DNA of 64,000 nucleotides, from assembly GCF_009914755.1 (NCBI RefSeq), contig NC_060940.1; one strand, 5' to 3'. Below are positions 47,414 through 53,173 of this stretch, in pieces; the stretch's first letter is position 1; each line of letters opens with the position of its first letter. Origin of the DNA: the human T2T-CHM13v2.0 reference genome, Homo sapiens. A program made the translations under genes and the position numbers. The notes beneath the pieces are model-generated. The model made no database searches and was not told the origin of the DNA. It saw nothing but the letters and a program-made list of their open reading frames with translations.

Positions 47414-47609
47414 TGTTTTCTGGCGGTCTTCCTCTTTCCATTGATTTTGTCATGACGGTTGATTTTCGTTGTCACCTTCCTCTTACGGATTTTAGCTCTA
47501 ACTTTTGTTTCCACATGCCTCCGTAGAGTAATGACGTCTTTCAGGCCAATTTTATTTCCTCGAAAGGAAGAAACTCTTTTCTTTGTGTGCATACAAATGG
47601 ACCTCAGCC
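47414..47609 (-). CDS. NPIPB6: NPIP exon (G)[10 protein letters not shown]...KRKTARK(Q), highly basic (196 nt)
   Basis: ctcaccaAG|GG acceptor; CA|GTaaga donor; phase 1/2. Confidence 0.9.
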
Positions 47610-50274: not shown

Positions 50275-51278
50275 TCAGGACTAAGTGGCATAGAGAATGT
50301 TAAATGTGCCTAGATATCTTCATAACTCATATATTTTCTGTTTTCTACATATCTTGAAAGGCAGTGCCAAATGACGTGTAATTATCTAGGTGGTAAAACT
50401 GAAACATACTTCCTCTTCCCTTGAATAAATTCTTACCAAGTACAGACTTTTGACATACTGATCTCTCTCCAGTTGCAAGTGGGAACATGCACTTTGAATG
50501 ATGTCATTCAAAATTACCCTGCCCAGACACACTTTTCATTGATTCTCTTGGAGGGCAGTTCTAAGAGATTCTCTGGGGCTTTCTCTGCATCATGAGACGC
50601 AGTGCAGTTCTGCCCTTCACCTTCCGGCAGTTTGTCACCTCGTCCCTATGACCTCAGAGGAACTTTGTCTCAGGCCAATTGTTTGTTCCTTGGCCTCTTT
50701 CATTTCCCCTAAAAATCATTTGCTGCCCCTCTAAATGGCCTACATCTCCATCTATCTCCCTCTCCCCTCAGAAGAGGGTGCTCTTTAAGCATCAACCATC
50801 CGGCCCTTCTAGCAGTCTCATTTTTCAGCTGGTTCCCATGTTTATGCCTGTTCTATGTTTTTCTTTTCCTGTTAAGCTGTCTGTTGTCAGCTCATTTCTG
50901 CAGTGAATCTTCAGAGAGGAGATTGGAAGCTTTCCTTCCACCCATACGATAGAACTATAAAGCAGAAGAGTTTAGAAAGAATTTCCTATTTAAGTGACGA
51001 AACCTCATACTCCATTTGTGATAAATAGCACAAAGGCTAAAAAAACTTATTTTTGACCAAAAGCTCTGTTGACATTCTATTAAACAAACACCGACCTATT
51101 TAATTTTCATAATGTAAATGGCAGACATTTTCATAATTCTTATGCTAATAAATCATTTCCCTGATTTTTTGGGTAAAACCACATATTCATAATGAAGTCC
51201 AGAAACGTGAATTGTTTTATATAATTTATTCTTATTTGTGATTACAAGTATACCTCTACAGAAAGTTAGTATACTCAC

Positions 51279-51461
51279 ACAAAGGCAACTTGTGCAGAAG
51301 AGAATGTTAAATGTGTAACGTCTCAGAAACCCAATAATGATAATTATCAAATTATCCAATTTTTGTGGAGATGGGGTTTTGCCATGTTGGCCAGGGTGGT
51401 CTCGAACTCCTGCACCAAAGTCAGTCTCACGATGACGATAGACAGCCAGACTATTGATAAC
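51279..51461 (-). CDS. NPIPB6: NPIP exon VINSLAVYRH...ILFCTSCLC (183 nt), with an Alu-derived insert and a hydrophobic stretch
   Basis: ttattccAG|GTT; TGT|GTgagt; phase 0/0. Confidence 0.92.
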
Positions 51462-51699
51462 CTGGAATAATAATAGTTGAAATAATGAAAAGGTCAATGA
51501 CACCGACAATATTTCACTCAGAAAGAATCATCCTTAGAAACCGTCAACCTCCTCCAAAAGGTAACCACATCCCTCAGATATCACCGTGGGATTCCACTGC
51601 TACAAAAAAGAACAGAAGTTAGAAGTCTCATGTTTTTCAGATGGCTGGTAGTGTTTTTAGGCATTGCAAATGTGGGGTGTTGTCTTTCTTGGTATAAAG

Positions 51700-52540
<841 letters not shown>

Positions 52541-52551
52541 GTATAAAGTAA

Positions 52552-52680
<129 letters not shown>

Positions 52681-53173
52681 TAACTGGGATTACAGGCACC
52701 TGCCACCGCACTCGGCTAATTTTTGTATTTTGAGTAGAAACAGGGTTTCACCATCTTGGCCAGGCTGGTCTCCAACTCGTGACCTCTTGATCCACCTGCC
52801 TCGGCCTCCCAAAGTGCTGGGAATACAGGTGTGAGCCACTGCACCTGGCCAGTAGTTATCTTTTCTTTAAAGTTATTTACTTGTTTTTTAAATTGATGTA
52901 TAACATTGGATGCATTTATTATATATCACATGGTAAAAGAATCCCTCTAAATAATACTTCTCTCTTGGATTATATGAATCTTTGTCATTTGAAGCTCAGC
53001 ATAAGTAAAAAAAAAATACAATGAAGAGATTACTTCATTCACAAATAAGTATCAAATTTTAGTGCTCAAAAATTAACAAGGTGGGCCGGGTGTGGTGGCT
53101 CACGCCTGCAATCTCAGCACTTTGGGAAGCCGAGGTGGGTGGACCACGAGATCAGGAGATTGAGACCATCCTA

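What the first reader, a model, noticed from the sequence alone, without database searches (positions are those of the whole stretch)
51360..51412. Coding NPIP exon contains a 53-bp perfect copy of a neighbouring intronic Alu (local templated insertion)
Seen: 51360-51412 (tttttgtggagatggggttttgccatgttggccagggtggtctcgaactcctg) is identical, in the same orientation, to 52313-52365 inside the Alu 953 bp away. The match includes non-consensus bases (gtGgaga, ttttGccatg, ccagGgtgg); I did not see that combination in other Alus here. It encodes [17 protein letters not shown] in frame in mid-exon, and the exon is 18 codons longer than the NPIPA version I recall. There is no poly-A tail and no target-site duplication, and it is not at an exon edge. 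Inference: this is neither retrotransposition nor ordinary Alu exonisation. It looks like a repair or template-switch event that pasted local intron DNA into the ORF, just before the hydrophobic LIIIIIGFL segment.
Basis: partly seen in the sequence, partly recalled or inferred. Interest (0 to 1): 0.85.

Follow-up and report, generated by a model that had tools for sequence, protein, structure and literature searches.

The report
Intronic Alu piece pasted into NPIPB6 exon
A 52-base piece of an Alu repeat lying about 1 kb away in the intron was copied into the middle of a coding exon of one branch of the human NPIP gene family, most likely as a DNA-repair patch, and now adds 18 amino acids to the protein.

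Summary
Window 51360-51412 equals 52313-52365 (53 of 53, same strand). In the whole T2T genome the 53-mer occurs 16 times, all in chr16 NPIP (LCR16a) copies: 15 are that intronic Alu and one is this exon.

Of 28 LCR16a copies, 8 carry the exon insert. These 8 form one clade (SH-aLRT 100), with an empty-site copy as sister. All 28 copies carry the Alu's unusual bases, so the copying ran from Alu to exon, once.

Seven of the 8 have A where this copy has G at 51412. The ancestral identity is therefore 52 bp, and the 53rd base is private to this copy.

The junctions show an 8-bp target deletion, a 3-bp microhomology, a 2-nt filler and an 8-bp one-sided local duplication. There is no flanking target-site duplication and no tail, and the splice sites are untouched. 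This fits a templated repair patch or template switch, not retrotransposition or exonisation.

The Alu origin of the insert, its frame and a junction peptide are already published (PMC6924539). In six full-text searches I found no paper naming the neighbouring Alu as donor. This is a tidy new example of a known process and of moderate interest.

The parts
51279..51461 (-). Second coding exon of NPIPB6 (third exon of NM_001395275.1), 183 bp, codons 41-101. This is the recipient of the insert.
   Evidence: Hub annotation. Open frame and full CDS. The exon is 183 bp in 8 of 28 LCR16a copies and 129 bp in 20 of 28. Frame and splice dinucleotides are kept in 28 of 28.
51360..51411 (-). The 52-nt Alu-derived core, sense Alu relative to the gene. 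It is identical to the donor in all 8 insert-bearing copies. It encodes the third base of codon 57 through codon 74 ([17 protein letters not shown]).
   Evidence: 23 perfect genome matches, made up of 8 exons and 15 intronic Alus.
51412..51413 (-). Two-nucleotide junction filler. It reads GC here and AC in the other 7 copies (plus strand). The G at 51412 happens to extend the match to 53 bp and changes Val57 to Ala.
   Evidence: On the tree this copy is nested among copies carrying A.
51414..51416 (-). ACC (plus strand), a 3-bp microhomology. It is present in the empty-site exon just after the deleted octamer, and in the donor Alu one base after the copied tract.
51342..51357 (-). Two adjacent octamers (AATTATCA / AATTATCC), a near-tandem duplication of exon sequence on one side of the core. 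The empty-site copy has one octamer. It encodes part of LDNL before the isoleucine run.
   Evidence: The 11 nt left of the core match the empty-site exon flank at 10 of 11, against 6 of 11 for the donor's own flank.
52139..52436 (-). Donor Alu in the intron upstream of the exon (transcript sense), same orientation as the gene. Its T-rich tail region (plus strand) lies at about 52116-52138.
   Evidence: repeat families D1-D4. It is present in all 28 LCR16a copies.
52313..52364 (-). Donor tract, 52 nt, about positions 73-124 counted from the Alu's own 5' end. It runs from the end of the left arm into the A-rich linker. Base 52365 (G) is the 53rd matching base in this copy.
   Evidence: The tract is perfect in 15 of 28 LCR16a copies, has 1 mismatch in 11 and 2 mismatches in 2.

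Best explanation
Once, in the common ancestor of the NPIPB6-type copies of LCR16a, the coding exon broke or a replication fork stalled in it. The lesion was repaired with a short copied patch: 52 nt of the sense-oriented Alu that lies about 0.95 kb upstream in the adjoining intron of the same duplicon.

The event removed 8 bp of exon (GGACTTCC on the plus strand, part of the GSPW codons). It added the 52-nt tract plus 2 filler nucleotides, and it left an 8-bp duplication of exon sequence on the other side. The net gain is +54 bp, in frame. The protein gained 18 residues: GSPW became (V/A)[21 protein letters not shown], directly N-terminal to the isoleucine-rich hydrophobic stretch. The donor stayed intact.

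Segmental duplication then carried the new exon to 8 copies in this genome.

Shown: the donor family, the direction, the single origin, the junction anatomy and the open frame. A junction peptide is published.

Inferred: the enzymology. My preferred version is DNA-templated copying from the cis Alu by microhomology-primed template switching (MMBIR/FoSTeS-like, or polymerase-theta-type end joining). I give that version about 0.5. The broader claim, a templated repair patch taken from LCR16a's own intronic Alu from a DNA or RNA template in cis or from a paralogue, I give about 0.85.
For: - Perfect matches to the 53-mer and 52-mer are confined to LCR16a (16 of 16 and 23 of 23). There are none among all other Alus of the T2T genome.
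- Of 28 copies, 8 carry the insert. They form one clade (SH-aLRT 100), so one gain suffices. The sister copy L025 has the empty site with the ancestral octamer intact, so it did not lose an insert.
- The donor bases are in 28 of 28 copies.
- The fragment is internal to the Alu. It has no tail and no flanking duplication. The junctions show an 8-bp target deletion, a 3-bp microhomology (ACC), a 2-nt filler and an 8-bp one-sided duplication.
- Splice dinucleotides are unchanged in 28 of 28 copies and the frame is open in 28 of 28.
- These junction features are the ones listed for class 2 templated sequence insertions made at double-strand breaks (PMC5110952, passages read).
- LCR16a duplication junctions have themselves been ascribed to replication-based template switching (PMC9132208, one passage read).
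Against: - Only one junction has microhomology. The other is blunt.
- At 52 nt copied from about 1 kb away, the tract is longer and more distant than the typical polymerase-theta templated insert. This comparison is recalled and not tested here.
- The cis donor cannot be told from 14 other copies with the identical 53-mer, nor from the pre-mRNA, which contains the same Alu in sense.
- The 2-nt filler and the one mismatch between the two octamers need extra small steps or later mutation.
- No ape genomes were available, so a stepwise origin is not excluded.
- Two unrelated Alus come within 1 mismatch of the 52-mer.
Confidence: 0.75

Rival explanations
1. The patch was RNA-templated. A piece of NPIP's own unspliced pre-mRNA, which contains this Alu in sense, or a cDNA made from it, was used to repair a double-strand break in the exon. 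This would be a class 2 templated sequence insertion with a local rather than a distant donor.
For: The donor lies in the intron of the same transcription unit and in the same orientation as the gene (hub annotation). The junction features (no duplication flanking the insert, no tail, microdeletion, microhomology, filler) are those described for class 2 insertions, which that paper derives from RNA (PMC5110952, passages).
Against: Nothing in the sequence requires RNA. There is no splice junction, tail or editing-type change in the 52 nt, which match 52 of 52. The one-sided 8-bp duplication of exon DNA is more easily explained by a copying polymerase slipping between nearby DNA templates. Orientation gives no discrimination.
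Confidence: 0.2
2. The template was the same Alu in another LCR16a copy (a paralogue in trans), not the one 0.95 kb away in cis.
For: Fifteen copies carry the identical 53-mer in that Alu. LCR16a copies are numerous on chr16 (28 found).
Against: The only argument is proximity. The insert has C at the position where the NPIPB3-type copies and chr18 have T. This excludes 9 of the 28 present-day copies as donors but not the NPIPA-type ones.
Confidence: 0.12
3. The origin had two steps. A tandem duplication of about 950 bp with breakpoints in the exon and in the Alu was followed by a roughly 900-bp deletion that left only the 52-nt tract.
For: This would produce the same Alu-to-exon junction. LCR16a is prone to duplication. 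Two NPIPA-like copies of this very segment lie 4.4 kb apart at chr16 15.12 Mb.
Against: It needs two independent rearrangements with a frame-preserving outcome. None of the 28 copies shows an intermediate.
Confidence: 0.04
4. The insert is an unrelated Alu fragment, from non-classical endonuclease-independent insertion or ordinary retrotransposition followed by trimming. On this view it matches the neighbour by chance or through later gene conversion.
For: Alu fragments without tail or duplications are known repair products (recalled; the search listing shows such literature exists). Two unrelated Alus are 1 mismatch from the 52-mer and 44 are at 2 mismatches.
Against: No Alu outside LCR16a is a perfect match, while the neighbour is 52 of 52. 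Conversion over a 52-bp island with sharp ends and no flanking homology is unlikely. The 8 copies show no trace of an older, different tract.
Confidence: 0.03

Closest known systems
[quoted passage not shown] 2019, PMC6924539)
   Same: It is the same feature. [quoted passage not shown] Table S1 lists it for NPIPB6 as 'Insert, frame preserving', AluJb, part of exon, 72 bp, with peptide ETDFGVGVR.
   Different: In the sections and table rows I read, the paper names no donor and no mechanism. [quoted passage not shown] Added here: the neighbouring intronic Alu as source, the single origin, the empty-site sister copy and the junction anatomy.
Class 2 templated sequence insertions (Onozawa and Aplan, PMC5110952)
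   Same: There is no target-site duplication, no poly(A), microdeletion at the target, microhomology, a few extra nucleotides and an intact donor. The insert has all of these (against the passages).
   Different: Those patches come from distant loci and are ascribed to RNA. Here the donor is about 1 kb away in the same gene, and a DNA template is at least as likely. This one is also fixed, coding, translated and multiplied to 8 copies.
Replicative template switching (FoSTeS/MMBIR) and polymerase-theta templated insertions
   Same: A short tract is copied from a nearby template in direct orientation. One junction has 3-bp microhomology, and a small extra duplication suggests more than one switch.
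   Different: These names and their typical sizes are recalled; only PMC9132208 was seen using the FoSTeS/MMBIR model, for LCR16a junctions. The second junction has no microhomology, and no enzyme can be assigned from sequence.
Alu exonisation
   Same: The result is Alu-derived protein sequence in a primate-specific gene.
   Different: No Alu splice site is used and the insert is mid-exon. The Alu is in sense rather than the usual antisense orientation (the orientation preference is recalled). The exon already existed in all 28 copies.
Classical L1-mediated Alu retrotransposition
   Same: The sequence is Alu.
   Different: The fragment is internal, about positions 73-124 of the donor. It has no 3' half, no tail and no flanking duplication, and 8 bp of target are lost. 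It carries the neighbour's own mutations.

Membership tests
Classical (target-primed) Alu retrotransposition | Poly(A) tail at the 3' end of the inserted element | tested here: not met
   The tract ends inside the Alu's A-rich linker after five A's (sense) and runs straight into exon sequence. The right arm and the tail are absent.
Classical (target-primed) Alu retrotransposition | Target-site duplication flanking both ends of the insert | tested here: not met
   The only duplication (octamers at 51342-51349 and 51350-51357) lies wholly on one side. On the other side 8 bp of target are deleted.
Alu exonisation | An exon boundary created by a splice site inside the Alu | tested here: not met
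   The core lies 81 and 50 bp from the exon ends. The flanking AG/GT dinucleotides are the same in 28 of 28 copies, with or without the insert.
Class 2 templated sequence insertion / break-repair patch | No target-site duplication and no poly(A), with microdeletion, microhomology and/or extra nucleotides at the junctions | tested here: met
   8-bp deletion, 3-bp ACC microhomology and a 2-nt filler. Criteria are as quoted from PMC5110952.
Class 2 templated sequence insertion / break-repair patch | The donor locus stays intact (copy, not cut-and-paste) | tested here: met
   The donor Alu is complete in all 8 insert-bearing copies, 952-959 bp from the insert.
Class 2 templated sequence insertion / break-repair patch | The patch is derived from RNA of a distant locus | not testable with these tools
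   The donor is local and intronic. The sequence does not distinguish an RNA template from a DNA template.
FoSTeS/MMBIR or polymerase-theta templated insertion | Microhomology at each template switch | tested here: inconclusive
   There are 3 bp at the junction next to 51412-51416 and none at the junction 51359/51360.
Ectopic gene conversion between repeats | A pre-existing homologous acceptor tract | tested here: not met
   The empty site (L025 and 19 other copies) has no Alu sequence there, only a 5-of-8 resemblance of the deleted octamer to the end of the tract.

The most novel reading that the evidence does not exclude
The exon is a recurrent site of breakage and error-prone, template-switching repair within LCR16a. 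On this reading the Alu patch is the visible scar. Part of the famous excess of amino-acid changes in this exon would be mutational rather than purely selective. The exon differs 4-15 times more than its flanks between clades. On the very branch that gained the insert, 4 of 17 substitutions fall in the exon, all four are amino-acid changing, and three lie within 40 bp of a junction. It would also be a clean example of a third route, besides retrotransposition and exonisation, by which repeat sequence becomes translated protein.
Probability: 0.15. Interest if true: 0.6.

Novelty: new member of a known kind. Interest (0 to 1): 0.38.

Why it matters
Alu-derived protein sequence is usually explained by exonisation or by retrotransposition into exons. 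Here the donor can be named to the base, and the junctions point to a repair patch copied from the gene's own intron.

That gives a dated, fixed and translated example of templated insertion creating coding sequence. It sits in the fast-evolving exon of a gene family tied to the 16p11.2 and 16p13 duplication architecture.

It also corrects the reading of published annotation: the insert listed as 'AluJb' (PMC6924539 Table S1) is not an independent Alu insertion. It offers a simple marker (insert present or absent, A/G at the junction) for sorting NPIPB paralogues in ape and pangenome assemblies.

The protein consequence is 18 polar, Pro/Gly-rich residues placed directly before the hydrophobic stretch. 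Its effect is untested.

Tried and rejected
- Leftward extension of the copied tract. The exon and the donor share a CAAATT-like stretch just left of the core, and RepeatMasker as cited in PMC6924539 bp Alu. The 11 nt left of the core match the donor at only 6 of 11, against 10 of 11 for the exon's own flank. I therefore read them as a local exon duplication, not as diverged Alu.
- The chr16:68.99 Mb Alu, which is 2 mismatches from the 52-mer and has both unusual bases, as a possible alternative donor or LCR16a remnant. It is only 85% like the donor Alu over 314 bp and has no flank homology. Rejected.
[quoted passage not shown] It differs in size (51 against 54 bp), in stated cause and in distribution: it is described for NPIPB in general, while the NPIPB3-type copies lack the insert. 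The 196-bp exon 47414-47609 opens with a plausible 17-19-residue extension. This is probably a different feature. I did not compare it with NPIPA DNA.
- Inverted-repeat pairing between the insert and neighbouring Alus. There are no inverted repeats in 50800-52700.
- Stem-branch clustering of substitutions as evidence for error-prone repair. In the output, 6 of the 23 are alignment artefacts of the indel. Of the other 17, 4 fall in the exon, against 1 of 43 on the sister branch. This exon is fast in every lineage, so the excess cannot be separated from selection.
- Literature searches for a statement of the local donor found none: plus passages in five papers. Subscription papers, including the original morpheus paper, and the supplements of the bioRxiv preprint were not visible.

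Full report
**Observation**

Window 51360-51412 and 52313-52365 are identical over 53 bases on the same strand. Even allowing 3 mismatches, these are the only two matches in the 64-kb window, against none in 100 shuffles. The next Alu, 319 bp from the donor, is 83% identical over the same 53 bases. The identity is therefore far above what two Alus normally share.

The exon 51279-51461 is open on the minus strand. It reads ...[35 protein letters not shown].... Joined to the other annotated coding parts it gives a 425-codon ORF. The Alu-derived core lies 81 and 50 bp from the exon ends.

**Genome-wide distribution**

The window's own assembly could be searched.

- The 53-mer has 16 perfect matches, all on chr16. 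By their flanks, 15 are the same intronic Alu in different NPIP/LCR16a copies and one is this exon.
- The 52-mer (last base dropped) has 23 perfect matches: those 15 Alus plus 8 exons.
- At 1 mismatch there are 13 matches: 11 further LCR16a copies of the Alu and 2 unrelated Alus (chr11, chr12).
- At 2 mismatches there are 46, of which 2 are LCR16a.
- In all, 868 places lie within 3 mismatches.

The unusual bases are therefore not individually rare among Alus, but the exact combination is confined to LCR16a. One near-match on chr16 at 68.99 Mb proved to be an unrelated Alu: 85% identity over 314 bp and no flank homology. The tool states that pattern counts are whole. Its general caveat about repeats being lower bounds applies to the 1.5-kb DNA search.

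**Which copies have the insert, and the direction of copying**

A 1.5-kb query found 28 LCR16a copies, 27 on chr16 and 1 on chr18. In the alignment the exon is 183 bp in 8 copies and 129 bp in 20. The 8 are five at 28.6-29.3 Mb and three at 80.2-80.4 Mb. The frame is open and the flanking splice dinucleotides are unchanged in 28 of 28.

The donor Alu is in all 28 copies. The tract is perfect in 15 copies, has 1 mismatch in 11 and 2 mismatches in 2.

A maximum-likelihood tree was built on 4,405 columns. Columns filled in under 80% of rows were dropped, so the insert columns did not count. It puts the 8 insert-bearing copies in one clade (SH-aLRT 100) and needs one gain. The copy at 75.80 Mb (L025) is their sister (SH-aLRT 99). 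L025 has the empty site with the ancestral octamer that the filled copies lack, so it never had the insert.

The chr18 copy is described as shared by human, chimpanzee and gorilla (PMC7419210, Discussion passage). The Alu state is therefore old and the exon insert is young, and the copying went from Alu to exon.

**The 53rd base**

Seven of the 8 copies have A where this copy has G at 51412. This copy is nested within the five-copy 16p11.2 clade. G is therefore derived, and the original identity was 52 bp. It changes Val57 to Ala.

The published peptide for this junction, ETDFGVGVR (PMC6924539 Table S1), is the Val form. Whether the A-to-G change is a plain transition or a one-base conversion from the Alu cannot be told.

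**Junction anatomy** (plus strand)

- Empty site (L025): ...GATAATTATCCAA | GGACTTCC | ACCAAAG...
- Filled site: ...GATAATTATC A AATTATC CAA | 52 nt of Alu | AC | ACCAAAG...

The event did four things:

- It deleted 8 bp.
- It inserted 52 templated nucleotides plus 2 more.
- It left two adjacent octamers (AATTATCA / AATTATCC) where the empty site has one.
- The net gain is +54 bp.

The 11 nt left of the core match the exon's own flank at 10 of 11 and the donor's flank at 6 of 11. I therefore read them as duplicated exon, not as diverged Alu.

At the other junction, ACC follows the deleted octamer in the exon. ACC also lies one base beyond the copied tract in the Alu, giving a 3-bp microhomology.

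The tract covers about positions 73-124 of the donor, counted from its 5' end. This is the end of the left arm and the start of the A-rich linker. There is no tail, no right arm and no duplication flanking the insert.

At the protein level, GSPW is replaced by (V/A)[21 protein letters not shown] directly before the isoleucine run.

**Mechanism**

Classical retrotransposition fails on tail, flanking duplication and fragment shape. Exonisation fails on splice sites and position. Gene conversion fails for lack of an acceptor tract.

The features match those quoted for class 2 templated sequence insertions at double-strand breaks: no duplication, no poly(A), microdeletion, microhomology and added nucleotides (PMC5110952, passages). 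They also match, from recalled knowledge, replicative template switching (FoSTeS/MMBIR) or polymerase-theta end joining. One paper invokes FoSTeS/MMBIR for complex LCR16a duplication junctions (PMC9132208, passage).

I commit to a templated repair patch from LCR16a's own intronic Alu (about 0.85). Within that, I favour DNA copying from the cis Alu by template switching (about 0.5). The extra octamer duplication looks like a second short copying step on nearby DNA.

Three things remain open:

- An RNA patch from the gene's own pre-mRNA, which carries this Alu in sense.
- A paralogous donor. Fourteen other copies have the same 53-mer. The C at one position excludes only the NPIPB3-type copies and chr18.
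- A duplication-then-deletion path.

**Timing**

Flank divergence is 0.68% (28 of 4,130) between the two insert-bearing subclades. It is 1.85% (76 of 4,115) to the empty-site sister and 2.0% (84 of 4,128) to chr18. With a recalled human-chimpanzee divergence of about 1.2%, the event falls roughly 4-10 million years ago. Gene conversion among paralogues could distort this, and ape assemblies were not available.

**Context**

Outside the insert zone, the exon differs 4-15 times more between clades than its flanks. For example, the window copy against an NPIPB3-type copy shows 27 of 117 in the exon against 64 of 4,118 in the flanks. This is the known rapid evolution of this family: an excess of replacements in certain exons in African apes (PMC7419210 passage).

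On the branch that gained the insert, 23 changes were scored. Six are artefacts of aligning the indel. Of the other 17, 4 fall in the exon. All four change amino acids and three lie within 40 bp of a junction. On the sister branch 1 of 43 falls in the exon. This may be selection or repair-associated mutation, and I cannot separate the two.

**What is already known**

Martinez-Gomez et al. [quoted passage not shown] I read section 18, passages of sections 19-20 and Table S1 rows. Table S1 lists it as a frame-preserving AluJb insert of 72 bp with a validated peptide.

Cantsilieris et al. 2020 (PMC7419210, passages) and the preprint 10.1101/116087 (passages) describe a 17-residue / 51-bp extension of 'exon 4' and an AluY insertion in the last exon. 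Neither is this feature.

In six full-text searches I found no statement that the neighbouring intronic Alu is the donor, or that the insert arose by templated repair. Subscription journals and preprint supplements were not visible.

**Verdict**

The existence and Alu origin of the insert are known. New here are the identified donor, the single origin, the empty-site sister and the junction anatomy. It is a new member of a known class of events, of moderate interest.

Noticed in passing
window 51279-51461 and loci L017-L044: Outside the insert zone, the exon differs 4-15 times more between LCR16a clades than 4.1 kb of flanking intron (for example 27 of 117 against 64 of 4,118). All 28 copies keep the frame and splice sites. 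This is the known fast-evolving morpheus/NPIP exon.
   Followed up: partly
G000 chr16 80.198, 80.313 and 80.427 Mb (L022, L024, L023): Three insert-bearing copies are spaced about 114.4 kb apart and are nearly identical, which implies a tandem triplication of a large block in this assembly.
   Followed up: no
G000 chr16 15.1165 and 15.1209 Mb (L042, L034): Two NPIPA-like copies of the exon-plus-Alu segment lie only 4.4 kb apart. They have long end branches (0.041 and 0.022) and share a private base in the Alu tract. This looks like a local duplication inside one LCR16a copy.
   Followed up: no
window 47414-47609: This 196-bp exon opens with [19 protein letters not shown]. It is probably the '51 bp / 17 amino acid extension of exon 4' described for NPIPB in the literature, and is distinct from the Alu insert.
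   Followed up: partly
window 51412: This T2T copy encodes Ala57 (G). The other 7 paralogues and the published NPIPB6 peptide ETDFGVGVR have Val (A). It is either a haplotype variant or a paralogue-assignment difference between assemblies.
   Followed up: partly
window 51820-52700: Three Alus in tandem lie upstream of the exon in the intron, all in the same orientation as the gene. There are no inverted repeats in 50800-52700.
   Followed up: no
G000 chr16:68988636-68988687 (L047): This unrelated Alu is 2 mismatches from the 52-mer and carries both unusual bases. It has no flank homology to LCR16a, so it is a chance near-match.
   Followed up: yes
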